Source: Candidatus Nanopelagicales bacterium (GTDB lineage Bacteria; Actinomycetota; Actinomycetes; S36-B12). From it: 28,644 nt of DNA. Made by a program: the position numbers and the translations under genes. Of the stretch, positions 2 through 24,199 are shown piece after piece; within the stretch, counting starts at the first letter, position 1; the number at the start of each line of letters is the position of its first letter. The notes under the pieces are model-generated. The model had not been told where the DNA came from and did no database searches. It saw nothing but the letters and a program-made list of their open reading frames with translations. Location: positions 1-28,644 of the forward strand of contig JBIIDD010000001.1 in assembly GCA_044238565.1 (NCBI GenBank), written 5' to 3'.

Positions 2-133
2 GACCCGGCCAACACCAATTCCCTGGGCAACCTCGGCGGCTGGGTGGCTGTGCTCGCCGTGGGTGTCGTGTCGGCAGTCGTGGCCTGGTTGCTCGAGCGT
101 CGCTGGCGCGCGAAGCATCCCGTCGAGGGTTAG
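2..133 (+). CDS. 3' end of a membrane protein (partial; begins before the window)
   Basis: Frame 2 reads DPANTNSLGNLGGWVAVLAVGVVSAVVAWLLERRWRAKHPVEG* (TAG 131-133): a hydrophobic helix followed by a basic tail. Confidence 0.6.
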   Translation, partial: DPANTNSLGNLGGWVAVLAVGVVSAVVAWLLERRWRAKHPVEG

Positions 134-594
134 GCGCCGCGCCTGCTGTCGCCGTGATCGCGTAGGGGATCGATCCCCGCGATGTGCTGCCCGAGACGCA
201 GCAACTGCTCGTCGGTGAGGTCGTCGATGTCTGCCCGCACGTCGGCGAGGATGCGCCCGGCGATGTCGCGTCGGTGCTTCTCGATGTACGCCGCGAGATG
301 GTGGCTCGCATTCGCCTTGCCTGTGCCGTGTCCGAGCAGGATGATCCCGGATGCCGGAGCGAGTGCCTGAGTGAGCAGTGACCAATAGGCGTCGCTGTCG
401 CCGAGATACGTGCCGTCGACATTGCCGTCATGGTGGTAGACGTTGTGGTAGCGCTTGCGCGGATCCTCGGCGACGACATGCTCGGGAGAGGAGCGGTCGG
501 GGGAGTCCAGCGCGTAGATGCGCGTGCTGTGGAAGTCGACGGCGACGATCGCGATCCGCCCCGTCAGATCGATGGCATCGGTGATGTCATGCAT
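130..594 (-). CDS. eRF1/baeRF-like ('translational machinery'/host-attachment-type) protein, 154 aa
   Basis: ATG at 594 with GAGGAGG RBS upstream. Pattern IVAVDFHSTRIY...HNVYHH...YWSLLTQALAPASGIILLGHGTGKANA...LTDEQLLRLG resembles the release-factor-fold family (VVWIDHxxARIF...HHK...ILIxGPxxAK...TDxQL). No GGQ. Recognised by eye. Confidence 0.6.
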   Translation of the reverse strand: MHDITDAIDLTGRIAIVAVDFHSTRIYALDSPDRSSPEHVVAEDPRKRYHNVYHHDGNVDGTYLGDSDAYWSLLTQALAPASGIILLGHGTGKANASHHLAAYIEKHRRDIAGRILADVRADIDDLTDEQLLRLGQHIAGIDPLRDHGDSRRGA

Positions 595-595
595 G

Positions 596-898
596 TCAGA
601 CCTCCTCGCCGGGCTTCTTGGGCTCGAACCCGGCATTGCGCAGCATGCGCCGCAGGTCGACCACCATCTGCGTGTCGATGTCCTTGTGACGGGGCCGGTC
701 GAAGACCTCGGTCTCGGGGCCCAGCGTGATCTTGAGCTTGCCGTCGTGACGCTCCTCGACATCGCCCACATGCTCGAGAAGGGAGATCGTGTCCGCCCAG
801 CGGATGTTGTGGCTCGTCGGGTGGCTGAAGATCGCCGTGAGCGTGTTGAGGTGGTGATTGTTGAGGTGAATGGGCTCGTCACCCGTGCCGTGTGCCAT
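596..898 (-). CDS. HicA-like (dsRBD-like fold) protein, 100 aa
   Basis: NTLTAIFSHPTSHNIRWADTISLLEHVG...VFDRPRHKDIDTQMVVDLRRMLRNAG matches the long HicA subfamily pattern TLxAIFxxPxxxNIxWxDIxSL...VFHRPH..D...VxxxRxxLxxAG. ATG at 898 is preceded by CAGGCT-N6. Confidence 0.65.
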   Translation of the reverse strand: MAHGTGDEPIHLNNHHLNTLTAIFSHPTSHNIRWADTISLLEHVGDVEERHDGKLKITLGPETEVFDRPRHKDIDTQMVVDLRRMLRNAGFEPKKPGEEV

Positions 899-904
899 GC
901 GCTC

Positions 905-910
905 AGCCTG
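905..910 (-). promoter_or_regulatory. -10-like element (CAGGCT) 6 nt before the ATG of the HicA-like gene; probable leaderless transcript
   Basis: Same 6-nt spacing to the start codon as the TANNNT elements elsewhere in the window. Confidence 0.35.
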
Positions 911-943
911 CCAGACGGGCGCGCGGGAGCGGGTCGTGGGTCC

Positions 944-949
944 TAGCCT
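944..949 (+). promoter_or_regulatory. -10 element (TAGCCT) 7 nt before the SDR ATG; probable leaderless transcript
   Basis: TANNNT consensus, and no SD before ATG 957. Confidence 0.5.
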
Positions 950-956
950 GACCTCC

Positions 957-1700
957 ATGAGCAGTCGAGTTCTCGTCACGGGTGGCTCGCGGGGGATCGG
1001 CGCGGCCATCGCGCGCAGGTTCGCCGTGGACGGATGCCGGGTGGCCGTGCACTTCCACGCGAGCCCCGACGCCGCGCAGGAGGTCCTCGCCTCCCTCCCC
1101 GGCACGGGCCACGTCGCGGTGCGTGCCGACCTGCGTGACCCGGAGGCCATCGCTGGCATGGTCGAGGCGGTTGCCGAGGCCCTGGGCGGCATCGACGTGC
1201 TGGTCAACAACGCCGGGGTCTTCTTCGATCACCCGATCGATGAGGTCGACTTCGCCAGTTGGCTCGACGCGTGGCGCCAGACCCTCGACATCAATCTGCT
1301 CGCGCCGGCGCTCGTCTCCTGGCATGCCGTGAGGCACATGGGCCCGGGCGGGCGAATCATCAATGTCGGATCCCGTGGCGCATTCCGGGGCGAGCCGCGG
1401 AGTCCCGCCTACGGTGCGAGCAAGGCGGGGGTCGCGTCGTTCGGGCAGTCCCTGGCGAAATACCTCGGAGGCCGGGGTATCGCGGTCACCACCGTGGCAC
1501 CGGGTTTCGTGGAGACGGATATGGCGGCCGAGGCGATGGAGGGTGAGGCCGGGGCGGTGCGCCGGGCAGAGAGCCCCTTCGGGCGCATTGCGCACCCGGA
1601 TGAGATCGCTGCAACGGTGGCCTTCCTGGCTTCACCGCAGGCGGAGTGGGCGAGCGGGGGAGTCGTCGATCTCAACGGGGCTTCCTACCTCCGCATGTGA
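957..1700 (+). CDS. SDR family NAD(P)-dependent oxidoreductase (FabG-like), 247 aa
   Basis: TGGSRGIG Rossmann motif, LVNNAG, YGASK catalytic YxxxK, VAPGFVETDM. Confidence 0.9.
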   Translation: MSSRVLVTGGSRGIGAAIARRFAVDGCRVAVHFHASPDAAQEVLASLPGTGHVAVRADLRDPEAIAGMVEAVAEALGGIDVLVNNAGVFFDHPIDEVDFASWLDAWRQTLDINLLAPALVSWHAVRHMGPGGRIINVGSRGAFRGEPRSPAYGASKAGVASFGQSLAKYLGGRGIAVTTVAPGFVETDMAAEAMEGEAGAVRRAESPFGRIAHPDEIAATVAFLASPQAEWASGGVVDLNGASYLRM

Positions 1701-1736: not shown

Positions 1737-2567
1737 TCAGCCATCGAGGAGGAAGCCGCAGAGGATTCGGTTGAACTCCTCCGCATGCTCGATCTGCGTC
1801 CAGTGGCCGCAGTTGCCGAAGACATGCAGCTGGGCGTCCGGGATGAGCTCGAAGAGGCGCAGTGATGTGGCGAGGGGGATCACTCGATCCTCGCGTCCGT
1901 GGAAGATGAGCGTGGGCGCGCGGATAGCGGATACCGCCGATTCCGCGTGGGCGAGGGCGTCTACCCAGCGCTGGCGCGGCGCCGGGAACATCTCGGCGTA
2001 GGCCTCCTGCACGCCTGGGCGCGTGCTCGCCTCGTAGCGCAGTCGTGCCAGGTCATCGATTCCGGGCGCGGGTGTCGCCGTGAAGATCCGCAGGAGTTCG
2101 GCCATGGACTCCACGCTCGGCTCGTAGCCCCATACCGAGTCCAATCCCGCCGTGATGGGGAAGCTCAGGCCCACAGCCCCCATGAGCCCGAGACGGCGCA
2201 CGCGCTCGGGGTGGCGGATCGCCAGTGCCAGGGCGAGGGAGCCGCCGAAGGAGTTGCCGACGACATGTGCCGTCTCGATCTGGAGTGCATCGAGCACGCC
2301 CACGGTATGGCGCACCCAGGTATCCACGTCGTATCGATCCACTGTGCGATCGGTGTAGCCGAACCCCACGATGTCGGGTGCGATCACACGGAAGCTCGTC
2401 GCAAGCGCCGGGATGGTCAGACGCCAGTTGGCCCAGGCGCTCACCCCAGGTCCCGACCCGTGAATGAGGAGCACCGTGCCACCGCCGGGGTCGATGCCCG
2501 TGTCGTGCACGTTGGTGCGGATGCCGGCGGCATCGATCGCCTCGCCGATCTCCGGACTGGTGGTCAC
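1737..2567 (-). CDS. Alpha/beta hydrolase, meta-cleavage product (2-hydroxymuconic semialdehyde-type; TodF/CumD/BphD family) hydrolase
   Basis: HGSGPGVSAWANW, GNSFGG nucleophile elbow, HGREDRVIP (Asp), CGHWTQIEH (His). GTG start with GGGAGG RBS overlaps the upstream stop (GTGA). Confidence 0.85.
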   Translation of the reverse strand: MTTSPEIGEAIDAAGIRTNVHDTGIDPGGGTVLLIHGSGPGVSAWANWRLTIPALATSFRVIAPDIVGFGYTDRTVDRYDVDTWVRHTVGVLDALQIETAHVVGNSFGGSLALALAIRHPERVRRLGLMGAVGLSFPITAGLDSVWGYEPSVESMAELLRIFTATPAPGIDDLARLRYEASTRPGVQEAYAEMFPAPRQRWVDALAHAESAVSAIRAPTLIFHGREDRVIPLATSLRLFELIPDAQLHVFGNCGHWTQIEHAEEFNRILCGFLLDG

Positions 2568-3316
2568 GGCATGGCCTCCCGGGATGATGCGAGGGTCGAC
2601 TTCGACAGTTTCGCACCGGACGTGTCCGTCACGAGCCCATGATGCACATAGGTCGCTTGAGCCACCAGCTCGGCGTCAAGCCATCGGGACATGTGGATCT
2701 GTGCCGCGGTCGAGGGGACGAGATCGCGTCCCCGGACGATGTGGGTGGCACCGAGGTCCCTGTCCTCCACGACCGAGACGAGTTGATACGCCGGGAGATC
2801 ATCCCGGCGCCACACAACGAAGTCGCCCATGTCGACATCCAGGCGCACGACAACGTCGCCTGCGTGCACGATGGTGCCGGGGGGCACCACCACGCGCAGG
2901 GCAGTCGCACCGGGTTCGAGCGGCAGGTCACGTGACCGGCAGTCACCGACACAGCCCCCCGTCGCGGGCCGGCTCTGCTGCGATCGCGAACAGGCGCAGG
3001 CATATGCAGGCAGTCCGCGCTCCAGAGCCTTCGTGAGTTCGGCGCGGTAGTACTCGGTCTTCGCGCGCTGAGACCAGGCGGATTCGAAGTCGTCGACATC
3101 GCGGGGACCACGCGTCCACGTGATGCCCATCTCGTGCAGGGTCGTGAAGATGTCCTCGGCGTACTCGCGGCGGTAGCGCGAGGCGTCGGCGTCATCAATG
3201 CGAAGGGCGACGACGGCGCCTACTTCCTCGGCGAGGTCGGCAGTCCGTTTGAAGTTGAGTCGGTTTCCTTCATGCAGGAAGCCGCTCGGGGTCGGCGCGA
3301 TCCTGGTGAGGGGCAC
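2564..3316 (-). CDS. Glutamate-tRNA ligase family paralog (GluQ-like, catalytic domain only), 250 aa
   Basis: TRIAPTPSGFLHEGN (HIGH-like), LRIDD, YACACSR, DFVVWRRD, AYQLVSVVED, THIVRGRDL, KLSKS. No anticodon-binding domain. GTG at 3316 is preceded by CATGAT-N6. Confidence 0.8.
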   Translation of the reverse strand: MPLTRIAPTPSGFLHEGNRLNFKRTADLAEEVGAVVALRIDDADASRYRREYAEDIFTTLHEMGITWTRGPRDVDDFESAWSQRAKTEYYRAELTKALERGLPAYACACSRSQQSRPATGGCVGDCRSRDLPLEPGATALRVVVPPGTIVHAGDVVVRLDVDMGDFVVWRRDDLPAYQLVSVVEDRDLGATHIVRGRDLVPSTAAQIHMSRWLDAELVAQATYVHHGLVTDTSGAKLSKSTLASSREAMP

Positions 3317-3384: not shown

Positions 3385-3471
3385 TGGTGTCCGAGGGGGG
3401 ACTTGAACCCCCATGCCCTTGCGGGCACTAGCACCTCAAGCTAGCGCGTCTGCCAATTCCGCCACCCGGAC
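3385..3471 (-). tRNA. tRNA-Leu(GAG) with encoded CCA
   Basis: Reverse complement folds as a cloverleaf: acceptor GTCCGGG/CTCGGAC, anticodon arm CTAGC-TTGAGGT-GCTAG, long variable arm GCCC-GCAA-GGGC, T arm GGGGG-TTCAAGT-CCCCC, 3' ACCA; 87 nt. Confidence 0.97.
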
Positions 3472-3577
3472 GTGGTGGGTGATCCGACCGTGCGGGGACA
3501 CGGAACGATCGCCGACGGCGAGGATAACAACAGGCGGCAACCGCCCCCCACCTGGCTCCGCAGGGCAGGATGGGCAC

Positions 3578-4915
3578 GTGGACACCCCGGCGTCAGAGGC
3601 CAGCCCGGAAGCGCACGCTGCCCAGGCCGAGGTGATCGACATCCTGCGCGCGCTCATCCGGATAGACACCACCAACGACGGCACCGATTCCGGGCCAGGC
3701 GAAGCCGCCGCCGCGGAGTACGTCGAGGCATCACTCCAGGAGGCGGGTCTCGAGGTTGAGCGCTTCAGCACCACGTCGTCGCGACGTCAGGGTGTGGTGG
3801 CACGCATCGCGGGGACCGATCCGACACGACCGCGCCTGCTCCTTCACGGTCATCTTGATGTCGTGCCTGCCCAGGCGTCGCACTGGTCGGTGCCGCCGTT
3901 CTCCGCCGAGGTGCTCGACGGCATGGTGTGGGGGCGCGGCGCGGTCGACATGAAGGACATGGATGCGATGCTCATCGCGCTTGCACGCGCGTGGAGTCGG
4001 TCGGGGATGCGACCGAGCCGAGACCTGGTCTTCCTCTTCATCCCCGACGAGGAGGCCGGTGGGCAGCATGGGTCGCACTGGATCGTCGACCACCGTCCTG
4101 ACATCCTCGAGGGAGTGACCGAGGGAGTAAGTGAGGTCGGGGGATTCTCGCTCACGCTGCCGGATGACCGCAGGCTCTACCTGATCCAGACAGCAGAGAA
4201 GGGCATCGCCTGGATGCGCTTGGTCGCCGAGGGGGCCGCCGGCCACGGTTCCGCGCTCACGGGCGATAACGCCGTCACCGAGGTGGCCGCAGCGGTGGCA
4301 CGCATCGGCCAGCACCGTTGGCCCGTGCAGCTATCGCCGACCGCGCGCCACATGGTCGCGGCCATCAGCGAGGCATATGGGCTCGATCTCGATCTCGATG
4401 ATCCGGTCGAGCTCGCACGTCAGCTTGGCCCCGTGGCTCGCTTCATCGGTGCCGGTACGCGCAACACCGCCAACCCCACGATGCTGCAGGCGGGCTACAA
4501 GGCCAATGTCATCCCCGGCGAGGCCACGGCCGTCGTCGACGGCCGCTACGTCCCTGGTGAGGGAGAGGCCTTCCTTGCCGAGATCGATCGCCTGCTCGGG
4601 CCCTCGGTGCGCCGGGAATTCATCAATCACGATGTGGCGTTGGAGGCGTCCTACGACGTGCCGCTCGTCGATGCCATGCGGGCGGCCCTGGAGGCGGAGG
4701 ATCCCGGCGCGGCCGTCGCGCCGTACCTGCTCTCGGCGGGCACCGACGCCAAGGCCTTCTCTCGGTTGGGAGTGCATGGCTACGGCTTCTCGCCGTTGCG
4801 CCTGCCACCCGATCTCGACTTCACAGCACTCTTCCACGGTGTCGATGAGCGCGTGCCTATCGACGCCGTGACCTTCGGCGTGCGCGCCCTGGACCGCTTC
4901 CTCCGGATGGCCTAG
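3578..4915 (+). CDS. M20/M25/M40 family metallo-hydrolase (peptidase/deacylase), 445 aa
   Basis: HGHLDVV, WGRGAVDMK, DEEAGG, FHGVDER metal-binding motifs. GTG at 3578 follows CAGGAT-N6; the longer ORF overlaps the tRNA and was trimmed. Confidence 0.9.
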   Translation: MDTPASEASPEAHAAQAEVIDILRALIRIDTTNDGTDSGPGEAAAAEYVEASLQEAGLEVERFSTTSSRRQGVVARIAGTDPTRPRLLLHGHLDVVPAQASHWSVPPFSAEVLDGMVWGRGAVDMKDMDAMLIALARAWSRSGMRPSRDLVFLFIPDEEAGGQHGSHWIVDHRPDILEGVTEGVSEVGGFSLTLPDDRRLYLIQTAEKGIAWMRLVAEGAAGHGSALTGDNAVTEVAAAVARIGQHRWPVQLSPTARHMVAAISEAYGLDLDLDDPVELARQLGPVARFIGAGTRNTANPTMLQAGYKANVIPGEATAVVDGRYVPGEGEAFLAEIDRLLGPSVRREFINHDVALEASYDVPLVDAMRAALEAEDPGAAVAPYLLSAGTDAKAFSRLGVHGYGFSPLRLPPDLDFTALFHGVDERVPIDAVTFGVRALDRFLRMA

Positions 4916-9868: not shown

Positions 9869-10408
9869 GTGCCACGCCGTATCCACTCCTACGTCGACCC
9901 GCGGCGCTTCGTCGCAGGCACGGTGGGATTGCCGGGTGAGCGGACCTTCTACCTGCAGGCCAGCGACGCCCGCTCCGTGACATCGGTCGCGCTCGAGAAG
10001 GCGCAGGTGGCGATGCTCGCCGAGCGAGTCGAACGTCTGCTCGCACAGGCCGGAGTGCCCGAGTCTGCGGGTCGCGATGACACCGACGCCCTCGCCTTGC
10101 CCCTGGAGGAGGAGTTCCGCGTGGGTGCCCTCGGTATCGCGTGGCTTCCCGACGAGGGCTCCGGCGAGAGGGTGCTTATCGAAGCGCACGCCCTGGGTGA
10201 GGAGGATGCTGCCGAGCCCGGTGATGACGATGACGATGCGGCTGACACCCTGCGCGTGTCCCTGTCCCCGGACGCCGCCGCGGCCTTCGCGCGACGAGCT
10301 CAAGCCCTCGTGGCCGCGGGGCGCCCGCCCTGCCCCTTCTGCTTGCAGCCCCTCGATGCGAATGGCCACATCTGCCCGCGTGCCAATGGATACCGACGCA
10401 GGGTGTGA
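9869..10408 (+). CDS. DUF3090 family protein
   Basis: RFVAGTVGLPGERTFYLQA, VALEKAQV, C-terminal GRPPCPFCLQPLD..GHICPRANGY (Zn-ribbon-like). Confidence 0.88.
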   Translation: MPRRIHSYVDPRRFVAGTVGLPGERTFYLQASDARSVTSVALEKAQVAMLAERVERLLAQAGVPESAGRDDTDALALPLEEEFRVGALGIAWLPDEGSGERVLIEAHALGEEDAAEPGDDDDDAADTLRVSLSPDAAAAFARRAQALVAAGRPPCPFCLQPLDANGHICPRANGYRRRV

Positions 10409-11199
10409 GTGTGACGCCTGCAGAGTTGGAGAGCGTGCTGTCGCAGGGCGATGTGACGGTCGAGGGCAGGCTTTGGGACTCCTCGAACTCGGCGATGCGG
10501 GTCGAGTGCAGCGCAGGTGCGGCGCTGGTGCGCGCGGTCTACAAGCCCCGGCGAGGCGAGCGACCCCTCTGGGACTTCCCCACGGGCTCTCTGGGGGAGC
10601 GCGAGGTGGCCACGTATGTGATCGACCGAGCGCTGGGCTGGGACCTTGTCCCGGTCACGGTGTGGAGGGACGACGCCCCGCTCGGGCCCGGCAGCCTCCA
10701 GGTCTGGGTGGACGTGGCTCCGGAGGACCCGCCCGTCGACGTCGTGGACGCAGATTGCGTGCCCCCGGGATGGCATGTGGTCGTGGAGGGGGAGGGAGCA
10801 CGTGGTGACCATGTGTGCCTCGTCCACGAGGAGTCCATTCCCCTGCGTCGGGTCGCCCTGCTCGACTCCATCGTCAACAACGCCGACCGCAAGGGTGGGC
10901 ACGTCCTGCGCGCGACTCCGGGGGCCGTCGCCGGTATCGATCACGGTCTGACCTTCCATGTCGAGCCCAAGCTGCGCACCGTGCTCTGGGGCTGGGCGGG
11001 CACGCCCATCGGTCCGTCAGAGCTCGCGGACCTGAGCACCCTCGCCGACGGCTGGGGGCTGGTGGCTGAGCAATTGGAGTTGCTGCTCACGCAGTCGGAG
11101 ATCGCCGCGGCGCGTGATCGTCTCCAGGCCCTGCTGCGCGCGGGCGAGTATCCGCTCCCGGACGGAGGATGGCCGGAGCTGCCCTGGCCCGCCATGTGA
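10405..11199 (+). CDS. SCO1664 family protein (PI3/4-kinase-like fold, function unknown)
   Basis: VYKP..GERPLWDFP.G.L..REVA, NNADRKGGH, IDHGLTFH, LRTVLWGWAG. GTGA overlap with the DUF3090 gene. Confidence 0.88.
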   Translation: MSVTPAELESVLSQGDVTVEGRLWDSSNSAMRVECSAGAALVRAVYKPRRGERPLWDFPTGSLGEREVATYVIDRALGWDLVPVTVWRDDAPLGPGSLQVWVDVAPEDPPVDVVDADCVPPGWHVVVEGEGARGDHVCLVHEESIPLRRVALLDSIVNNADRKGGHVLRATPGAVAGIDHGLTFHVEPKLRTVLWGWAGTPIGPSELADLSTLADGWGLVAEQLELLLTQSEIAAARDRLQALLRAGEYPLPDGGWPELPWPAM

Positions 11200-11226
11200 G
11201 ATCGGCGGATCTCCTAGGCTCACACC

Positions 11227-12459
11227 ATGGAGTCCTGGCCGAGGCCGCTCGTCCCATCGCTGGGGCCCGGTGGTCGACCCGTGCGTGTGCTGGATACGTC
11301 GAGCGGGGAACGTCGGCCCACGGCTCCCGGGGAGGAGGCTCGGCTCTACGTCTGCGGGATCACCCCGTACGACGCCACGCATATGGGTCACGCCGCCACC
11401 TACCTCGCCTTCGACACGCTGGTGAGGGCGTGGATCGATGCCGGGCATCGGGTCCGCTACGTGCAGAACGTCACCGACATCGACGATCCTCTCCTCGAGC
11501 GCGCTGTCGCGACCGGCCAGGACTGGCGGGAGATTGCCCAGCGCGAGACGCAACTCTTCCGTGAGGACATGGAGTTCCTGCGCGTCCTCCCCCCGGACGA
11601 CTACATCGGGGCGGTCGAATCGATCCCCAGTGTCGTGAGGTGCATCCAGGGCCTGCAGGAGCGCGGTGCGGTGTACGACGTCGACGGCGATCTCTACTTC
11701 GACATTTCGGCGGATCCGCTCTTCGGGGGAGTCTCCGGTCTCTCGCGCGAGGACATGCTCGAGGTGTTCGCCGAGCGAGGAGGCGACCCGCTACGGCCCG
11801 GCAAGCGAGATCCGCTGGACCCTCTGCTCTGGCGCGCCGCACGTCCGGAGGAGCCAGCCTGGGACACAGCCCTGGGTCACGGTCGACCGGGTTGGCACAT
11901 CGAGTGCGTGGCCATCGCGCTGGACCACCTCGGCATGACCTTCGACGTCCAGGGTGGAGGTCGCGACCTCGTCTTCCCCCATCACGAGATGGGAGCCAGC
12001 CACGCGGAGGTGCTCGAGGGCACCCGGCCCTACGCGCGCGACTACGTCCACGCGGGCATGGTCGGGCTCGATGGCGTGAAAATGAGCAAGTCGCTCGGCA
12101 ATCTCGTCTTCGTGCATCGCCTGCGCGATGGGGGCGTGAGCGCGGGTGCCATCCGGCTCGCCGTGCTCGCCCACCACTACCGCGATGACTGGGACTGGAC
12201 CGATGAGGGCCTTGCGCAGGCCGAGTCGAGACTGGATCGCTGGCGCCGCGCTGCCGCGCTGGCTGCGGGCCCCGCCGCGGAGGCCACGTTGACCGACATG
12301 CGTGCCGCGATCGCCGATGACCTTCGCACACCCGAAGCCCTCGCTGTGGTCGATCGCTGGGCGGATGAGGCACTCACGCGAGGTGGCAGCGATCCCTCGT
12401 CGCCCGCGCGAGTCCGCAGTGCCGTGGATGCGCTGCTGGGAGTGGATCTAGTCGGGTAG
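11227..12459 (+). CDS. mshC: L-cysteine:1D-myo-inositol 2-amino-2-deoxy-alpha-D-glucopyranoside ligase (mycothiol biosynthesis)
   Basis: [51 protein letters not shown]. CysRS-like without an anticodon domain. Confidence 0.95.
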
Positions 12460-16192: not shown

Positions 16193-16870
16193 ATGGACCT
16201 CCCTGCTGCGGTGCTCTTCGACCTCGACGGCACGCTCATCGACTCTGAGGACCTGTGGTGGGATGCCGAGTGCCGGGTCGTGTCGAGCTGGGGGGGCACC
16301 TGGACGCGTGACGATCAGGCGCACTGCCTCGGGGGCCCGCTTGAGCGGGTGACGTCGTACATGGCTGATCGCACAGGCTCGCCACATGCGCCGGATGTGA
16401 TCGGCGCCGAGCTGCTTGCCACCATGGAGTGGCTCCTGCGATCAGGTGACCTCGTGTGGCGCCCGGGCGCGCTCGAACTCCTCACCGAGTGCCGCGCGGG
16501 TGGTGTGCCGACCGCGCTGGTGTCGGCGTCTCATCGTCGACTTCTCAGCGCCGTGTCCGACGCCGTGTCAGGTCGACAGGGCATTCCCGAGCCCGCCTTC
16601 GATGTCACCGTGGCCGGTGACGAGGTGGACGAGGGCAAGCCCCACCCCGAGCCCTATCTCGCGGCCGCGCGACATCTCGGCGTCCCCATCGAGGCATGCA
16701 TCGTGATCGAGGATTCGCCCACGGGAGTGGCAGCGGGACAGGCCAGCGGTGCCTATGTCCTCGCGGTGCCGCATCTCGTGCCGATTCCGGAGCATCCGCG
16801 CCGTCGCGTGCTCGAGTCGCTCGACGGCGTGACGCTGGCGGATCTGCGGGCCTGGGCTAGCCTCCCCTGA
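16193..16870 (+). CDS. HAD family phosphatase, 225 aa
   Basis: FDLDGTLIDSE motif I, LVSAS motif II, GKPHPEPY, IEDSPTGV. Confidence 0.9.
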   Translation: MDLPAAVLFDLDGTLIDSEDLWWDAECRVVSSWGGTWTRDDQAHCLGGPLERVTSYMADRTGSPHAPDVIGAELLATMEWLLRSGDLVWRPGALELLTECRAGGVPTALVSASHRRLLSAVSDAVSGRQGIPEPAFDVTVAGDEVDEGKPHPEPYLAAARHLGVPIEACIVIEDSPTGVAAGQASGAYVLAVPHLVPIPEHPRRRVLESLDGVTLADLRAWASLP

Positions 16871-17730
16871 TGACCGGCGACCGGATGCTCTCCGCGGGGG
16901 ACATCGTGCAGATCACCGACGACCGCGGGCGCCACCACACCCTCGTGCTGCAGCCTGGCGCGACATTCCACACCCATCGGGGTTCCATCTCTCACGATGA
17001 CCTGCTGGGGCGCCCCGAGGGCATCGTGGTGACCACCACGGGAGGCACGTCCTACGTCGCGCTGCGCTCGCTGCTCGAAGACTTCGTCCTCTCCATGCCG
17101 AGGGGTGCTGCGGTCATCTACCCCAAGGACTCGGGTCGAATCGCGATGCTCACCGGCTTGCGACCCGGCTGGTCCGTGCTCGAGGCAGGCGCGGGCTCGG
17201 GTGCGCTCACCTGCACGCTCATCCAGACCGTGGGGATCCAGGGGCGAGTCGTTTCCTGCGAGCGGCGTCCTGACTTCGCCGAGACCGCGCGTGCCAACGT
17301 CACACGCTGGTTCGGAGACCAGCCCGCCAATTGGACACTCCACATCGGAGATCTCGCGGATCGCCCCTGGGCGGATGAGGCGCCCTTCGATGCGGTGGTG
17401 CTCGACATGCTGGATCCCTGGGAGCACGTCGACGCGGTGGCCCATGCCCTGCGCCCTGGAGGAGTGCTCGTCGTCTACGTTGCCACGACGACGCAGCTCT
17501 CGAGGATCGCTGAGGACCTGCGGGCCGACGGGCGATGGACCGAGCCTCGGGCTGAGGAATCCCTGGTGCGCACCTGGCATCTCGAGGGGCTGGCGGTGCG
17601 CCCGGATCACCGCATGGTGGGCCACACGGGCTTCCTCCTCGCGACACGTCGGCTAGCCGAGGGCACGGTGGCTCCACCCAGGCGACGCCGACCCGCCAAG
17701 GGCATGACGGGGTCCAGCACCGGCGCGTGA
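16870..17730 (+). CDS. trmI: tRNA (adenine(58)-N1)-methyltransferase
   Basis: SMPRGAAVIYPKD, EAGAGSGALT, LDMLDPW, RPDHRMVGHTGFL; usual position upstream of arc. Confidence 0.92.
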   Translation: MTGDRMLSAGDIVQITDDRGRHHTLVLQPGATFHTHRGSISHDDLLGRPEGIVVTTTGGTSYVALRSLLEDFVLSMPRGAAVIYPKDSGRIAMLTGLRPGWSVLEAGAGSGALTCTLIQTVGIQGRVVSCERRPDFAETARANVTRWFGDQPANWTLHIGDLADRPWADEAPFDAVVLDMLDPWEHVDAVAHALRPGGVLVVYVATTTQLSRIAEDLRADGRWTEPRAEESLVRTWHLEGLAVRPDHRMVGHTGFLLATRRLAEGTVAPPRRRRPAKGMTGSSTGA

Positions 17731-17793
17731 CAGGCGCGGGGTGCCCATATGTAGGTAGGGTCGAGGAGTAGGAAGCGTCCCGGGAGGAGCGGC

Positions 17794-19446
17794 ATGAGCG
17801 AGCGTGACTCGGCAATGCGCACCCCTGAGGAGCGCCTCCGGGTGGTCGAGTCCGAGCTTGCAGCCGCGCAGTCGCACAACGGCCGTCTCGTGGCGACCCT
17901 GCGCGATGCACGGGAGCAGATCGTCGCGCTCAAGGCGGAGGTCGACCGCCTCGCCGAGCCCCCTGGCAGCTACGGAGTCTTCCTGGCCCGCCTCGACGAC
18001 GGATCCCTCGATGTGGCGGTGGCCGGGCGCAAGATGCGACTTGTCTCGACACCTGACGTCGATGCCTCCTCGCTACAGCCGGGCCAGGAGGTCATGCTCA
18101 ACGAAGCGCTCAACATCGTCGGGGTTCGCGACTTCGAGCGCATCGGCGAGATCGTCATGCTCAAGGAGCTCTTGGCCGATGGCGAACGAGCGCTGGTCAT
18201 CGGTCGCGCCGACGAGGAGCGCGTGGTGGGCCTGGCGGAGCCATTGCGTCAGCGCACCCTGCGCGCGGGGGATTCACTGCTCATGGAGCCCCGCAGCGGC
18301 TATGTCTTCGAAGTCATCCCCAAGTCCGAGGTCGAGGAACTCGTCCTGGAGGAGGTGCCCGACGTCGACTACGCCGACATCGGCGGTCTCGGCAGCCAGA
18401 TCGACGCCATCAAGGACGCCGTCGAGTTGCCCTTCCTGCACCCCGATCTCTTCGAGGAGCACCGGCTCGCACCCCCCAAGGGGATCCTGCTTTACGGGCC
18501 GCCCGGGTGCGGCAAGACCCTCATCGCCAAGGCGGTGGCCAACTCACTGGCCAAGAAGGTCGCCGAGCGCACCGGACGCGAAGAGGGCCGCTCATTCTTC
18601 CTCAACATCAAGGGACCGGAACTGCTCAACAAGTACGTCGGCGAGACGGAGCGTCACATCCGCCTCGTCTTCCAACGAGCGCGTGAGAAGGCTTCCGAGG
18701 GCATGCCGGTCATCGTCTTCTTCGACGAGATGGACTCCCTCTTCCGCACGCGCGGCTCGGGCGTCTCGAGCGATGTCGAGAACACGATCGTTCCTCAGCT
18801 GCTCAGCGAGATCGATGGCGTCGAGAGTCTCGAGAATGTCATTGTCATCGGCGCCTCCAACCGCGAAGACATGATCGATCCCGCGATCCTGCGCCCCGGT
18901 CGCCTCGATGTGAAGATCAAGATCCAGCGCCCTGATGCGGAGGCGGCTCGCGACATCCTCAGCAAGTACCTCACTCCGGGCCTGCCGCTTCACGCCGATG
19001 ACCTGGGTGAGCATGGTGGCGATGCCGAGGTGACCTGCGCCGCGATGATCCAGCGAGCGGTCGAGCGGATGTATTCGGAGGACGACGACAATCGCTTCCT
19101 TGAAGTGACCTACGCCAACGGTGACAAGGAGGTCCTCTACTTCAAGGACTTCAACTCTGGTGCCATGCTGGAGAACATCGTCGCGCGCGCCAAGAAGATG
19201 GCCATCAAGGACTACCTCGACTTCGGCCAGAAGGGCATTCGGGTACAGCATCTGCTGAGCGCGTGCGTCGATGAGTTCCGTGAAAACGAGGACTTGCCCA
19301 ACACCACCAACCCCGATGACTGGGCGCGGATCTCGGGCAAGAAGGGCGAGCGGATCGTCTTCATCCGGACACTCGTCCAGGGCAAGCAGGGCACGGAGGC
19401 CGGGCGCCTCATCGACACGGTGCCCAACACCGGCCAGTACCTCTGA
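17794..19446 (+). CDS. arc: Proteasome-associated AAA ATPase (ARC/Mpa)
   Basis: N-terminal coiled coil, GPPGCGKT Walker A, FFDEMD Walker [10 protein letters not shown]-terminal GQYL docking motif; GGAGG RBS. Confidence 0.97.
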
Positions 19447-19461
19447 TCGCCGGGTGATCCG

Positions 19462-20976
19462 ATGAGCGTGCACCGTGTCATGGGCATCGAGACCGAATAC
19501 GGCATCAGCGTCCCCGGGCACCCGCACGTCAATGCGATGACGACCTCCTCGGCCGTCGTCACGTCGTACGACGGCATCGCGGTGGGAGACCGGCGCAATC
19601 GCGCTCGATGGGACTTCGACGAGGAGCACCCGCTGCGAGACGCCCGCGGCTACGACATGTCGCGCGCAGAGGCGGACCCCAGTCAGCTCACCGACGAGGA
19701 TCTCGGGCTGGCCAATCTCATCCTGACCAATGGCGCTCGGCTCTATGTCGACCACGCTCATCCGGAGTTCTCGAGTCCTGAGGTGACCAATCCTCGCGAT
19801 GCTGTCCTGTGGGATCGGGCGGGTATGGAGATCATGGCCGACGCCGCGGAGGCGGCCACGCGATCGGGTCCCTTCACGATCCAGCTCTACAAGAACAACA
19901 CCGATAACAAGGGTGCGTCCTACGGGTGCCACGAGAACTACCTCATGCGCCGCGGCACCCCCTTCGCCGATATCGTGCGTGACCTCACCCCCTTCTTCGT
20001 CACGCGGCAGATCTTCGCGGGGGCCGGGCGAGTGGGCCGGGGCCAGGAGGGGCGGGATCCCGGCTTCCAGCTCTCACAGCGCGCGGACTTCTTCGAGGTC
20101 GAGGTCGGGCTCGAGACGACGCTCAAGCGTCCGATCATCAACACGCGCGACGAGCCGCATGCCGATCCGGAGAGGCATCGCCGCCTCCACGTGATCGTGG
20201 GTGACGCCAACCTGGCCGAGGCCGCCACCTATCTCAAAATGGGCAGCACCTCACTCGTGCTCGCCATCATCGAGAGCGGGGGAATGCCCGAGGAACTGGT
20301 CCTCGCTGATCCGGTCCGCGAGATCCATGCCGTCTCCCATGACCCGACCCTGCGTCATCGCCTGACGCTCCGGGATGGCCGCCGCCTCACGGCACTCGAG
20401 ATTCAGCGCGTCTATCTCGAGGCGGCGGCAGACTTCGCTGAGCGACAGGCGGTCGCCGGCGTCGATGCGCAGACGGTCGACATCCTCCAGCGCTGGGATC
20501 GTGTTCTCGTCGACCTCGCCGCTGACCCTCGCCTCGCTGCCGATCGCGTGGATTGGGCGGCGAAGCTCAGTCTCCTCGATGGTTATCGCAGGCGCGATGG
20601 CCTCGACTGGGATAGCGCGCGTCTCGAGCTCGTCGACCTCCAGTACGCCGACATCCGCCCCGCGCGCGGTCTGGCACTCAAGCTGGAGGCGTCCGGGCGC
20701 CTCGAGCGGCTCACGACGCCGGGTGATGTCGATCGGGCCCGTGAGCATCCGCCGGCCGACACCCGGGCGTACTTCCGGGGGGAGTGCCTTCGGCGCTACG
20801 GGGATGCCGTTGCGGCCGCGTCGTGGGACTCGGTCATCTTCGATATCCCCGGCCAGGACGCGCTCCAGCGCGTCCCGACCCTCGAGCCTGTCCGTGGCAC
20901 GAAGGATCACGTGGGCAGCCTCCTTGACTCGGCGAGCACGGCGGAGGAGCTGCTGGAGGCCCTCCGCGGCACGTGA
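19462..20976 (+). CDS. dop: Depupylase/deamidase Dop
   Basis: [56 protein letters not shown]. Confidence 0.96.
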   Translation: MSVHRVMGIETEYGISVPGHPHVNAMTTSSAVVTSYDGIAVGDRRNRARWDFDEEHPLRDARGYDMSRAEADPSQLTDEDLGLANLILTNGARLYVDHAHPEFSSPEVTNPRDAVLWDRAGMEIMADAAEAATRSGPFTIQLYKNNTDNKGASYGCHENYLMRRGTPFADIVRDLTPFFVTRQIFAGAGRVGRGQEGRDPGFQLSQRADFFEVEVGLETTLKRPIINTRDEPHADPERHRRLHVIVGDANLAEAATYLKMGSTSLVLAIIESGGMPEELVLADPVREIHAVSHDPTLRHRLTLRDGRRLTALEIQRVYLEAAADFAERQAVAGVDAQTVDILQRWDRVLVDLAADPRLAADRVDWAAKLSLLDGYRRRDGLDWDSARLELVDLQYADIRPARGLALKLEASGRLERLTTPGDVDRAREHPPADTRAYFRGECLRRYGDAVAAASWDSVIFDIPGQDALQRVPTLEPVRGTKDHVGSLLDSASTAEELLEALRGT

Positions 20977-21031
20977 GGGAGCGCGGCAGGGCCCTGCAGC
21001 CCGCAGGACGGCGTAGGGGCCCCACGGCGTC

Positions 21032-21037
21032 TAGGGT
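21032..21037 (+). promoter_or_regulatory. -10 element (TAGGGT) 6 nt before the pup ATG; leaderless pup-prcB-prcA-pafA transcript
   Basis: TANNNT-N6-ATG with no SD. Confidence 0.55.
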
Positions 21038-21043
21038 GTAGCC

Positions 21044-21235
21044 ATGAGCACCCAGGACAGTCAGCGTCGCTCCACCCGCACCGGGCAGGAAGAGCACGAC
21101 GAGGTCATCCTGCCTGAGCGTGCTCCCAGCGACATCGATGCCGACGTCGACGCGATCCTCGACGAAATCGATGAGGTCCTCGAGGAGAACGCCGAGGAGT
21201 TCGTGAAGTCCTTCGTCCAGAAGGGCGGCGAGTGA
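21044..21235 (+). CDS. pup: Prokaryotic ubiquitin-like protein Pup (C-terminal GGE)
   Basis: [28 protein letters not shown], located between dop and prcB. Confidence 0.97.
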
Positions 21236-22074
21236 CGGTGGATCGGGCCCGGGGCCTGCCCAGGGCCTTCATGGCCCACGGCTCCTCGTTCGCCGATTTC
21301 CTGGCCCATTCCGGGCAGTGGCCGGCCCCCGATGTGACCCTGTCCGGCATGGGCAGCGTCGACGTTCCGCACGCGACCACGATCGTGGCACTCGCGACAG
21401 CAGACGGCATCGTGATGGCGGGTGATCGTCGCGCGACGATGGGCAACATCATCGCGCAGCGCGACATCGAGAAGGTCTTTCCGGCTGATGAGCACTCTGT
21501 CGTGGGCATCGCAGGAGCGGCGGGGGTCGCCGTCGAGCTCGTCAGGCTCTTCCAGGTCGAGCTCGAGCACTACGAGAAGATCGAGGGCTTGCCACTCTCG
21601 CTGGATGGCAAGGCCAACCGCCTCGCCACCCTCCTGCGGGGCAATCTCGGAATGGCGATGCAGGGCCTTGCGGTGGTCCCCCTCTTCGCCGGATACGACC
21701 TGGACCGGGGGCGTGGCCGCATCTTCTCCTACGACGTCACGGGTGGACGCTACGAGGAGCGCGATCACCACGCCGTGGGGTCGGGTTCCGTCTTTGCCCG
21801 AGGATCTCTGAAGAAGCTGTATCGCTCGGGCATGTCGACCGAGGACGGCGTGATGGCGTCGGTCGAGGCGCTCTACGACGCCGCGGACGATGACTCGGCG
21901 ACCGGGGGCCCTGATCTCACGCGCAGGATCTTCCCGGTCATCGCCGTGTCCGATGCCGAAGGTGTGCGCATGCTGCCCGATGCCGAGGTCGGATCGGTCG
22001 TCGAGCGAGTCGTCGGTGCGCGACTCACGAGTCCCGACGGGCCCAAGGCTTCGCTGCCCGGGAGTGCGCGATGA
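21232..22074 (+). CDS. prcB: 20S proteasome beta subunit (48-aa propeptide, Thr1 at residue 49)
   Basis: HA|[36 protein letters not shown]; GTGA overlap with pup. Confidence 0.96.
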
Positions 22075-22826
22075 CGGTGCCCTTCTATGTCTCGCCCGAG
22101 CAGATCATCAAGGACAAGGCGGACTACGCCCGCAAGGGCATCGCCCGAGGTCGCAGCGTCGTCGTCCTGCAGTACGACGGGGGAATCCTCTTCGTCGCGG
22201 AGAATCCCTCGCGGTCCCTGCACAAGATCTCGGAGATCTACGATCGCATCGGCTTTGCGGCGGTAGGCAAGTACAACGAGTTCGAGAACCTCCGAGTCGC
22301 AGGAGTGCGACTGGCCGATATGCGCGGCTATGCCTACGACCGTCGCGATGTCACGGGTCGCAGTCTCGCCAACGCCTACGCCCAGACCCTCGGCTCGATC
22401 TTCACCGAGACCACCAAGCCCTACGAGGTCGAGCTCGTGGTGGCCGAGGTGGGTCATGAGTCCGACCAGGACGAGATCTACCGGCTCACCTTCGACGGCT
22501 CCGTAGCCGACGAACACGGCTATGTCGCCATGGGAGGCCAGGCGGACGAGGTGGCCGAGTCCTTGGGCGCATCGTGGCGACCGGGCATGTCCCTCGACGA
22601 GGCCGTGCGCTCGGCCGTCGCTGCCCTCAGCACGACCGCGTCGGCGCCTCCAGGACCGGAGCAGTGGGAAGCGGCCATCCTCGAGCGCAGCCGACCCCGG
22701 CGCACCTTCCGGCGTCTCAGCGCCGATCGCCTGGCCGGCATCCTCGGCGTGGCGCGGCCCGAGCCGCCCGCGCCCGGAGTCGCCGAATCCCCAGATCTTC
22801 CCGCCACCGGGGGCGAGGTGCCTTAG
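22071..22826 (+). CDS. prcA: 20S proteasome alpha subunit
   Basis: [43 protein letters not shown]; ATGA overlap with prcB. Confidence 0.96.
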
Positions 22827-22828
22827 CG

Positions 22829-24199
22829 GTGGACCGGCGCATCTTCGGGATCGAGACGGAGTACGGCATCACGTGCACCTTCCGAGGTCAGCGCCGTCTG
22901 AGCCCTGACGAGGTTGCCAGGTATCTCTTCCGGCGCGTCGTCTCATGGGGTCGGAGCAGCAACGTCTTCCTGCGCAATGGATCGAGGCTCTACCTCGACG
23001 TGGGCAGCCATCCGGAGTACGCCACCGCCGAGTGCGACGACGTCATCCAGTTGATCACCCACGACCGAGCAGGGGAGCGGATCCTCGAGGGACTGCTCGT
23101 CGATGCCGAACGCCGCCTCAACGACGAGGGCATCGCCGGCGATGTCTACCTCTTCAAGAACAACACCGATAGCGCCGGCAACTCCTACGGATGCCATGAG
23201 AACTACCTGGTGGCCCGCCACGGTGAGTTCCAGCGCCTCGCCGACTCGATCCTGCCCTTCCTGGTCTCCCGTCAGGTGATCTGCGGTGCGGGCAAGGTCC
23301 AGCAGACCCCCCGAGGGGCCGTCTACTGCATCAGTCAGAGGGCCGATCACATCTGGGAGGGCGTGTCGAGCGCCACGACGCGCAGTCGGCCCATCATCAA
23401 CACGCGCGATGAGCCCCACGCGGATGCAGAGCGGTACCGGCGACTCCACGTCATCGTCGGTGACTCCAATATGAGCGAGACGACGACACTGCTCAAGGTG
23501 GCGTCAGCAGATCTCGTGCTGCGCATGCTCGAGTCCGGGGTCGTGCTGCGCGACCTCTCCCTCGAGAATCCCATCCGAGCCATCCGCGAGATCAGCCACG
23601 ACCCGACCGGGCAGCGCACCGTCCGACTGGCCAATGGCCGCGAGCTCACGGGGCTGCAGATCCAGTCGGAGTACTACGACAAGGCCCGGGATTTCGCCGA
23701 CCGGCAGGGTCTGGCCGACGACCCCGGTGGGGTCTACGCACGGTGCCTCGACCTGTGGGAGCGCACTCTCAAGGCCGTGGAGACAGGGGACCTCTCCGGC
23801 ATCCAGGAGGAGATCGACTGGGTGATCAAGAAGACGCTCATCGATCGCTACATGGCGAAGCATGGCCTGACGCTCTCCGATCCGAGGATCGCGCAACTCG
23901 ACCTTGCGTATCACGACGTCACGCGATCACGCGGTCTGTTCTACCTCCTCGAACGCCACGGCAAGGCGGCGCGCGTCACCCACGAGCCCGCGGTCTTCGA
24001 GGCGAAGTCGATCCCGCCTCAGACCACTCGGGCGCGATTGCGCGGCGAATTCATCCGACGTGCCCAGGAGCGCCGACGCGACTTCACGGTCGACTGGGTG
24101 CACCTGAAGCTCAACGACCAGGCTCAGCGGACCGTGCTGTGTAAGGACCCCTTCGCGAGTGTCGATGAGCGTGTCGAGAAGCTCATCGCGAGCATGTAG
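22829..24199 (+). CDS. pafA: Pup--protein ligase, 456 aa
   Basis: [62 protein letters not shown]. Confidence 0.96.

What the first reader, a model, noticed from the sequence alone, without database searches (positions are those of the whole stretch)
2564..3316. Minimal GluRS/GluQ-like paralog ending right after KMSKS, with HEGN and a 4-Cys Zn site
Seen: 250 aa, a HIGH-like motif HEGN (acidic second residue), a Zn-type motif C-x-C-x12-C-x3-C (YACACSR...GCVGDCR), and a stop only 10 residues after KLSKS. Known: E. coli GluQ-RS uses a Cys3-Tyr site (YxGxC), has a helical segment after KMSKS, and glutamylates queuosine on tRNA-Asp. MshC, in this same window, shows that truncated aaRS paralogs can be repurposed as small-molecule ligases. 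Inference: this may be a tRNA-independent or novel-substrate glutamyl ligase, or a recently truncated allele.
Basis: partly seen in the sequence, partly recalled or inferred. Interest (0 to 1): 0.6.

Follow-up and report, generated by a model that had tools for sequence, protein, structure and literature searches.

The report
Minimal GluQRS-like tRNA-modifying enzyme paralog
This gene encodes a conserved, unusually short member of a large unnamed branch of GluQRS-type enzymes, which probably still adds glutamate to the queuosine base of tRNA-Asp; it is not a broken gene or an assembly error, and no member has been tested.

Summary
Window 2564-3316 (-) encodes 250 aa with HEGN, C-x-C-x12-C-x3-C and KLSKS ten residues before the stop.

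The shortness is not an artefact. Of the 120 closest protein clusters, 113 end 16 or fewer residues after KLSKS. The short forms make one clade (98/89) with dN/dS of 0.12-0.39. No remnant of the missing helix lies downstream.

The protein belongs to a distinct family (FAM; 396 clusters at 50% identity) found in Actinomycetota, Bacteroidota, Desulfobacterota and Campylobacterota. Most members carry a 30-60 aa tail.

- FAM fails all five NCBIfam GluQRS models.
- It nevertheless forms a 100/100 clade with canonical GluQRS inside bacterial GluRS.
- It has invariant family changes: APTPSG, RIDDxD, STAAQ and HHxL.
- HEGN and the fourth Cys are not conserved.

In the window's order, 44 of 46 FAM holders have tgt. 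queA was found in 0 of 151 genomes. tgt sits next to the transporter gene yhhQ, which suggests queuine salvage.

In the short clade the stop overlaps the start of an alpha/beta hydrolase gene.

Best reading (about 0.57): a divergent, minimal GluQRS acting on Q34 of tRNA-Asp. This is a new variant of a known kind. Function is untested. Earlier scan notes describe the same arrangement in other genomes.

The parts
2564..3316 (-). Gene for the 250-aa minimal GluQRS-like protein (FAM family, truncated clade), stop included
   Evidence: AlphaFold2 model pLDDT 95, pTM 0.91; Foldseek best rmsd and identity to E. coli GluQRS 4a91
3263..3274 (-). HIGH-type motif HEGN (residues 15-18). H, G and N are family-invariant or nearly so; E is variable.
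3185..3202 (-). RIDDAD (residues 39-44). The family-invariant D41 replaces the Glu that binds the substrate amino group in GluRS and GluQRS. A43 replaces the GluRS Thr.
   Evidence: PMC12736043; PMC3542578
2939..2998 (-). Zn-knuckle-type C107-x-C109-x12-C122-x3-C126 in the shortened connective peptide
   Evidence: E. coli site is C101, C103, Y115, C119 (PMC12736043)
2597..2611 (-). KMSKS-type loop KLSKS (residues 236-240)
2567..2596 (-). 10-residue unconserved tail with low model confidence. Its codons hold the Shine-Dalgarno (GGGAGG) of the next gene. It stands where relatives have an 18-residue helix.
2564..2567 (-). GTGA: the stop of the GluQRS-like gene overlaps the GTG start of the hydrolase gene (translational coupling)
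1737..2567 (-). 276-aa alpha/beta hydrolase of the meta-cleavage-product hydrolase type. It scores below the HsaD and BphD cut-offs. It is coupled downstream in 9 of 11 loci of the truncated clade.
3385..3471 (-). tRNA-Leu(GAG), directly upstream on the same strand

Best explanation
The ORF encodes a functional, minimal member of a distinct and widespread but unnamed subfamily (here FAM) of GluQRS/YadB-type paralogs of the GluRS catalytic domain. It most likely works like GluQRS. It would bind ATP through HxGN and KLSKS and activate L-glutamate without tRNA. It would then transfer the glutamyl group to the queuosine at position 34 of tRNA-Asp. In this organism the Q base would come from salvaged queuine, imported by the YhhQ/QPTR transporter and inserted by a Tgt with an altered pocket, because queA, queG, queH and queC were not found. 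The sub-clade that holds the window's protein lost the single helix that follows the KMSKS loop. This coincides with an alpha/beta-hydrolase gene becoming translationally coupled to its 3' end, and the remaining 250-aa core stayed under purifying selection. Shown: the fold, motifs, clade membership, conserved truncation, selection, the gene overlap, presence of tgt and yhhQ, and queA not found. Inferred: glutamate as substrate, Q34 of tRNA-Asp as acceptor, queuine salvage, and any role of the hydrolase.
For: Fold: PF00749; AF2 model pLDDT 95; closest in rmsd and identity to E. coli GluQRS with Glu, 4a91 (TM 0.78, rmsd 3.0, 30% identity). Phylogeny: FAM plus canonical GluQRS form a 100/100 clade nested in bacterial GluRS; FAM itself is 100/100 (careful IQ-TREE; quick tree). 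Published GluQRS traits are present: an HxGN signature and loss of the GluRS Thr in EDTD (PMC3542578). Four of the six Glu ligands of 4A91 are identical (R5, A7, Y177, R195) and two are conservatively changed (PMC12736043). Context of Q: the own genome has tgt next to yhhQ. 44 of 46 FAM holders in the order have tgt, against 106 of 151 overall, and all 15 FAM genera lie among the 30 tgt-bearing genera of 40. Five cultured FAM holders (Pontibacter, Hymenobacter, Mucilaginibacter, Desulfoluna, Desulfobacter) have tgt and queA and no canonical GluQRS. Truncation is conserved: 113 of 120 nearest clusters and 11 loci in one clade (99 in the quick tree; 98/89 in the careful tree). dN/dS is 0.12-0.39.
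Against: It fails all five NCBIfam GluQRS equivalog cut-offs, and so do full-length FAM members. The invariant S9T and E41D changes sit at the substrate amino-group site. The Arg of the TPRQ motif is lost (STAAQ), and HHxL replaces HxPL. queA was found in 0 of 151 genomes of the order, and queG, queH and queC were not found in five relatives. Q can therefore only arise by salvage, and the inserted base is unknown. Two FAM holders have no detectable tgt (97% and 85% complete). One genome (G013) holds FAM and a canonical GluQRS together. No FAM member has been characterised in the papers searched. The helix after KMSKS, present in E. coli GluQRS and most FAM members, is missing here.
Confidence: 0.57

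Rival explanations
1. FAM enzymes are not isofunctional with GluQRS. They would use the same adenylate chemistry but activate another acidic amino acid, or transfer it to another acceptor (a different tRNA position or a small molecule).
For: Family-invariant changes at the substrate amino-group site (T9, D41) and in TPRQ and HxPL. A long stem branch of 0.9. All five GluQRS models are failed. FAM co-resides with a canonical GluQRS in G013. Two holders lack tgt.
Against: The side-chain carboxylate ligands R5, Y177 and R195 are kept. There is a 100/100 clade with GluQRS. FAM is nested in tgt-bearing genomes and is the only GluQRS-like gene in five cultured tgt+queA+ genomes. No conserved neighbour or domain fusion points to another pathway.
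Confidence: 0.2
2. In this actinobacterial order the acceptor is not queuosine. It would be whatever 7-deazaguanine the unusual Tgt inserts, such as preQ1 or another salvaged base, giving a new aminoacylated wobble base.
For: queA 0 of 151; queG, queH and queC not found; only tgt and yhhQ are present. The Tgt pocket reads GGAI---EK instead of GGLAVGEPK, and DEL instead of DEC. It matches neither the preQ1-type motif nor the published queuine-type GG[LS][AS]G motif (PMC10723273).
Against: The same FAM family occurs in genomes with a full tgt+queA pathway. The 'tgt plus QPTR only' genotype is the published signature of queuine salvage, which yields Q directly (PMC10723273, PMC10570037). The deletion removes the Val that excludes queuine, which fits a larger pocket.
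Confidence: 0.1
3. The short ORF is a decaying remnant, a recent nonsense or frameshift allele, or an assembly error.
For: The MAG is fragmented (328 contigs, 64.7% complete). The protein lacks a helix that most family members have.
Against: The same short form occurs in 113 of 120 nearest clusters and in 11 independently assembled loci. All family invariants are kept. dN/dS is 0.12-0.39. No helix remnant exists in any frame downstream. The overlap with the next gene's start and its SD sequence is conserved.
Confidence: 0.03

Closest known systems
E. coli GluQRS (YadB; PDB 1NZJ, 4A91; NCBIfam TIGR03838)
   Same: It is a GluRS catalytic domain without an anticodon-binding domain. It has an HxG(S/N/H) motif, a KLSK(Q/S) loop and a CxC...(Y/C)xxxC zinc knuckle. 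The GluRS Thr of EDTD is lost. Four of six Glu ligands are identical. The two form a common 100/100 clade.
   Different: The score is 153 bits against a cut-off of 276.7. The family has T9 and D41 instead of Ser and Glu, STAAQ instead of PTVRQ, HHxL instead of HLPL, a 9-residue insert after G70 and a 3-residue insert before HHxL. Only 10 residues follow KLSKS, against about 63 in E. coli.
HxGN subgroup of GluQ-RS (Dubois 2004, as cited in PMC3542578; here loci L006-L008, L059, L160-L162)
   Same: Both have the HxGN signature. Some members carry an insert at the G70 position. These are the nearest canonical relatives in the tree, with weak to moderate support of 68-86.
   Different: Those proteins pass the NCBIfam GluQRS cut-offs (298-329 bits). 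They keep APSP(S/T)G, R(I/M/L)ED, TPRQ and a 63-69 aa tail.
Bacterial GluRS (TIGR00464)
   Same: The catalytic fold and the Glu and ATP motifs are shared. Foldseek top hits are GluRS catalytic domains.
   Different: There is no stem-contact or anticodon-binding domain. The score is 104 bits against 290. The GluRS Thr that reads A76 is absent.
MshC (CysRS-derived small-molecule ligase, in this window at 11218-12459)
   Same: It is a class I aaRS catalytic-domain paralog with a non-translational role.
   Different: It has a different parent synthetase (CysRS, PF01406). It shows no sequence kinship beyond the Rossmann class I fold and no gene linkage to this ORF.

Membership tests
GluQRS (tRNA glutamyl-Q34 synthetase) | GluRS-type class I catalytic domain with no anticodon-binding domain | tested here: met
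   PF00749 only, 250 aa; AF2 model and Foldseek
GluQRS (tRNA glutamyl-Q34 synthetase) | Score at or above a curated NCBIfam equivalog cut-off (TIGR03838, NF004312-NF004315) | tested here: not met
   152.9/276.7, 147.9/256, 127.8/250, 110.4/380 and 102.9/453. Full-length FAM members also fail, while canonical controls pass.
GluQRS (tRNA glutamyl-Q34 synthetase) | Adenylate-site signature HxGS, HxGN or HxGH (PMC3542578, citing Dubois 2004) | tested here: met
   HEGN. H, G and N are invariant or nearly so in the family.
GluQRS (tRNA glutamyl-Q34 synthetase) | The GluRS Thr of EDTD (which reads A76) is replaced by Ile, Leu or Val | tested here: inconclusive
   The Thr is absent. The window protein has Ala (RIDDAD). 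Across the family the counts are A 105, L 65, M 25, I 21, V 19 and T 1. The residue is non-Thr, but not the I/L/V of the published rule.
GluQRS (tRNA glutamyl-Q34 synthetase) | Glu-binding residues of 4A91 (R9, A11, S13, E45, Y172, R190) | tested here: inconclusive
   R5, A7, Y177 and R195 are kept. S changes to T9 and E changes to D41, both family-invariant.
GluQRS (tRNA glutamyl-Q34 synthetase) | Zinc site CxC...YxxxC in the connective peptide | tested here: met
   C107, C109, C122 and C126 are present. The third ligand is C, Y or another residue in relatives. Metal binding itself was not tested.
GluQRS (tRNA glutamyl-Q34 synthetase) | Helical segment after the KMSKS loop (about 60 aa in E. 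coli) | tested here: not met
   10 residues remain, with low model confidence. Relative P0122 has a helix at 251-268. Family tails are 22-76 aa.
GluQRS (tRNA glutamyl-Q34 synthetase) | Phylogenetic placement with characterised GluQRS rather than GluRS | tested here: met
   The FAM+GluQRS branch is 100/100 and includes E. coli GluQ.
GluQRS (tRNA glutamyl-Q34 synthetase) | The genome can put queuosine at position 34 (Tgt plus QueA and QueG/H, or queuine salvage) | tested here: inconclusive
   tgt and yhhQ are present. queA, queG, queH and queC were not found. Salvage of queuine is inferred, not shown.
GluQRS (tRNA glutamyl-Q34 synthetase) | Glutamylates Q34 of tRNA-Asp and activates Glu without tRNA | not testable with these tools
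   This is a biochemical property. No characterised FAM member appeared in the paper searches.
GluRS (glutamate-tRNA ligase) | Anticodon-binding domains and TIGR00464 at or above cut-off | tested here: not met
   104.1 bits against 289.95. The protein ends after KMSKS.

The most novel reading that the evidence does not exclude
FAM is not an isofunctional GluQRS. It would be a new aminoacyl-transferase clade whose remodelled amino-group pocket (T9/D41) and lost TPRQ arginine select another substrate or another 7-deazaguanine acceptor. This would apply especially in the tgt+yhhQ-only, queA-less actinobacteria. In the truncated clade it would work as a two-gene module with the translationally coupled alpha/beta hydrolase, for example to write and erase a labile ester. 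This 0.15 falls inside the 0.2 and 0.1 already given to the first two rival explanations; it is not extra probability.
Probability: 0.15. Interest if true: 0.75.

Novelty: new variant of a known kind. Interest (0 to 1): 0.42.

Why it matters
GluQRS is one of the few synthetase paralogs that modify RNA, and only the E. coli and Shigella type has been studied. This work delimits a large sister or nested family spanning four or more phyla, which current annotation calls only 'glutamate--tRNA ligase family protein'. The family has its own invariant active-site residues. One natural sub-clade shows that a 250-aa core ending at the KMSKS loop can be kept by selection, which makes it among the smallest natural class I synthetase-like enzymes. 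It also links this enzyme to bacteria that seem to live on salvaged queuine. If the function holds, it extends glutamyl-Q to Bacteroidota, Desulfobacterota and freshwater Actinomycetota. If it does not hold, a new tRNA or metabolite modification is waiting there.

Tried and rejected
- **Assembly error or recent truncation:** rejected.
- **HEGN acidic residue and 4-Cys site as functional signatures:** rejected as family traits.
- **Conserved gene neighbourhood across phyla:** none found in 81 loci with 8-kb flanks. Only shadow ORFs and generic families recur.
- **Domain fusions to Q-pathway genes:** none. Longer forms are N-terminal extensions without a Pfam domain, or a Campylobacter form with an insert of about 230 aa.
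- **Riboswitch or other RNA element near the gene:** only tRNA-Leu was found. The promoter and terminator scan was uninformative.
- **Family members in other Actinomycetota:** 0 of 400 sampled genomes outside the order. That count includes the unpublished genomes G168 and G378, which showed only GluRS-level hits.
- **Papers not held:** Dubois 2004, Salazar 2004 and Yuan 2019.
- **Mutual exclusion with canonical GluQRS:** too few cases to judge. There was no overlap in 121 Desulfobacterota (FAM in 2, canonical in about 10) and one co-occurrence in the order.

Full report
**Observation**

The minus-strand ORF 2564..3316 encodes 250 aa.
- HEGN at residues 15-18.
- C107-x-C109-x12-C122-x3-C126.
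- KLSKS at residues 236-240, with ten residues before the TGA.

Pfam sees only the GluRS/GlnRS catalytic domain (PF00749, 79.8 bits). The best NCBIfam model is GluQRS TIGR03838. It scores 152.9 bits against a cut-off of 276.7, and the other four GluQRS models are also failed.

tRNA-Leu(GAG) lies 69 nt upstream on the same strand. The TGA overlaps the GTG of a 276-aa alpha/beta hydrolase gene (GTGA at 2564-2567). The window is otherwise a core actinobacterial region holding an MshC-like gene, PGI, TrmI, Mpa, Dop, PrcB/A and PafA. The genome is a 1.6-Mb MAG, 64.7% complete.

**Is the shortness real?**

Yes. Among the 120 nearest 90%-identity clusters (57-77% identity), 113 end 16 or fewer residues after KLSKS.

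In whole-genome and contig searches, eleven independent loci share tails of 5-15 residues: L017-L020, L062-L066, L068 and L069. They form one clade, with support of 99 in the quick tree and 98/89 in the careful tree.

Pairwise dN/dS in this clade is 0.12-0.39, with dS near saturation. All family-invariant residues are kept. A profile of the relatives' tails finds nothing in any frame downstream of the stop. This is an old, selected state, not a recent nonsense allele or an assembly error.

What is missing is one helix. A 277-aa relative (P0122) folds with pLDDT 95 and has a confident helix at residues 251-268. The window protein (pLDDT 95, pTM 0.91) ends in a tail of low confidence.

In 9 of the 11 short loci the stop overlaps the start of the same hydrolase gene (GTGA, ATGA or TTGA). 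The last codons of the short protein carry that gene's Shine-Dalgarno sequence. The loss of the helix and the coupling to the hydrolase therefore go together.

Other very short forms occur elsewhere in the family: L075, several 50%-identity representatives, and an earlier scan note. The tail seems to have been dispensable more than once.

**The family (FAM)**

The protein belongs to a large family:
- 396 clusters at 50% identity reach E<=1e-30. Typical length is 265-310 aa, and the median tail is 46 residues.
- At least 592 loci occur in one-genome-per-species contigs. They come from Actinomycetota (Nanopelagicales-type MAGs), Bacteroidota (Pontibacter, Hymenobacter, Mucilaginibacter, Chitinophaga and others), Desulfobacterota (Desulfobacter, Desulfoluna), Campylobacterota, SAR324 and Bacteriovoracaceae.
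- Sources name these proteins 'glutamate--tRNA ligase family protein' or, sometimes, GluQRS.
- Full-length members also fail all five GluQRS models (178-226 bits), while canonical controls pass.

Family invariants, or near-invariants, are R5, A7, P8, T9, P10, S11, G12, H15, G17, N18, R39, D41, D42, D44, C107, C109, R111, Y177, D185, R195, G196, D198, L199, Q206, H225, H226, K236, S238 and K239.

Compared with GluRS and canonical GluQRS, FAM differs at several points:
- APTPSG replaces APSP(S/T)G.
- RIDDxD replaces RIEDxD.
- STAAQ replaces TPRQ.
- HHxL replaces HxPL.
- There is an insert after G70 and a 3-residue insert before HHxL.

HEGN is not conserved as such. Position 2 of the motif is A, E, L, I, V and others. 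The third zinc ligand is Cys, Tyr or another residue.

**Relation to GluQRS**

I built a careful IQ-TREE (LG+C20 PMSF) of 59 catalytic domains, rooted on GlnRS. FAM plus canonical GluQRS, including E. coli GluQ, form a 100/100 clade inside bacterial GluRS. FAM alone is 100/100, on a stem of 0.90.

Whether FAM is sister to canonical GluQRS or nested among its HxGN members is weakly resolved (68-86 support). Canonical GluQRS is monophyletic in 11% of bootstrap trees.

Published GluQRS traits are present:
- An HxG(S/N/H) signature and loss of the GluRS Thr of EDTD. The window protein has Ala there, most FAM members have L, M, I or V, and only 1 of 261 has T (PMC3542578).
- Four of the six residues that hold glutamate in 4A91 (R9, A11, S13, E45, Y172, R190; PMC12736043) are identical.
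- The two that touch the amino group are conservatively but invariantly changed (T9, D41).

Foldseek places the model on GluRS catalytic domains and on 4a91, which gives the lowest rmsd (3.0) and nearly the highest identity (30%).

**Queuosine context**

The own genome has tgt, cut by a contig end (285 bits). It sits directly beside a YhhQ/QPTR transporter gene, and four near-complete relatives have the same pair.

In 151 genomes of the order (at least 85% complete):
- FAM occurs in 46 genomes (15 of 40 genera).
- tgt occurs in 106 genomes.
- 44 of the 46 FAM holders have tgt.
- All 15 FAM genera lie among the 30 tgt-bearing genera. The naive probability is 0.004, but kin are not independent.
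- The two exceptions (97% and 85% complete) have no tgt fragment at all.

Strikingly, queA was found in 0 of 151 genomes. queG, queH and queC were not found in five relatives. 'tgt plus QPTR only' is the published signature of queuine salvage (PMC10723273; PMC10570037).

The Tgt here has DEL for DEC and a three-residue deletion in the pocket loop, so GGLAVGEPK becomes GGAI---EK. This removes the Val that excludes queuine. The loop matches neither published motif.

Five cultured FAM holders from other phyla have tgt and queA, and FAM is their only GluQRS-like gene.

Canonical GluQRS is rare in the order (4 of 151), and one genome, G013, has both types. In 121 Desulfobacterota, FAM (2 genomes) and canonical GluQRS (about 10) do not overlap.

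**Interpretation**

The weight of evidence favours a divergent, minimal GluQRS. It would activate Glu without tRNA and esterify Q34 of tRNA-Asp, with Q obtained by salvage.

The family-specific changes around the amino-group site, the lost TPRQ arginine, the failure of all curated models, the co-residence in G013 and the queA-less background leave real room for a different amino acid or acceptor. I put that at about 0.3 in total.

The hydrolase is of the meta-cleavage-product type (HsaD 199/400, BphD 166/462). It is linked only within the truncated clade, and its role, if any, is unknown. No neighbour is conserved across phyla and no informative fusion exists.

**Limits**

- No FAM member has been characterised in the literature I could search.
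- Three key papers were not held.
- The count of 0 of 400 other Actinomycetota includes the unpublished genomes G168 and G378.
- Earlier scan notes had already seen the same gene pair in other genomes.

Noticed in passing
own genome, contig C316 (locus L002:5-787 tgt; 841-1323 yhhQ on the other strand): tgt lies beside a YhhQ/QPTR transporter gene. The Tgt has DEL for DEC and a 3-residue deletion in the substrate-pocket loop (GGAI---EK against E. coli GGLAVGEPK). This matches neither the preQ1-type motif nor the published queuine-type motif.
   Followed up: partly
order-level sample of 151 genomes: tgt occurs in 106 of 151 genomes, but queA was found in none. queG, queH and queC were also not found in five relatives. 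The whole order looks like a 7-deazaguanine salvager.
   Followed up: partly
L063:6495-7979 (+), directly upstream of its GluQRS-like gene: A xanthine/uracil-type (NCS2) permease gene ends 4 nt before the FAM ORF, giving a permease-FAM-hydrolase chain. An earlier scan note describes the same chain in another genome. It could be a base importer linked to the modification.
   Followed up: partly
window 3413-4915 (+): The longest ORF of the M20 peptidase (NF005913, 669 bits) overlaps tRNA-Leu on the other strand, and the profile match starts at residue 62. The true start is probably further downstream. This peptidase neighbours FAM in several related loci.
   Followed up: no
P0283 (Campylobacter rectus, 526 aa): A FAM member carries an insertion of about 230 residues, with no Pfam match, inside the connective peptide between the two halves of the catalytic domain.
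   Followed up: partly
G013 (loci L005 and L038): One genome of the window's family holds both a canonical, proteobacterial-like GluQRS (359 bits) and a FAM gene. The GC contents of the two loci are 60% and 56%. Transfer or contamination was not resolved.
   Followed up: partly
L075:7980-8735: A MAG labelled Synechococcus carries a FAM gene that groups with Bacteroidota and is independently truncated (6 residues after KLSKS). The bin may be contaminated.
   Followed up: no
window 10246-11199 (+) and 130-1210 (-): These long, high-GC3 ORFs have no Pfam match. They sit between the histidine phosphatase gene and the MshC-like gene, and at the left end of the window.
   Followed up: no
window 16861-24199: A complete Pup-proteasome cluster (Mpa, Dop, PrcB/A, PafA) is preceded by a TrmI-type tRNA m1A methyltransferase gene. 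This is an ordinary actinobacterial core region.
   Followed up: no
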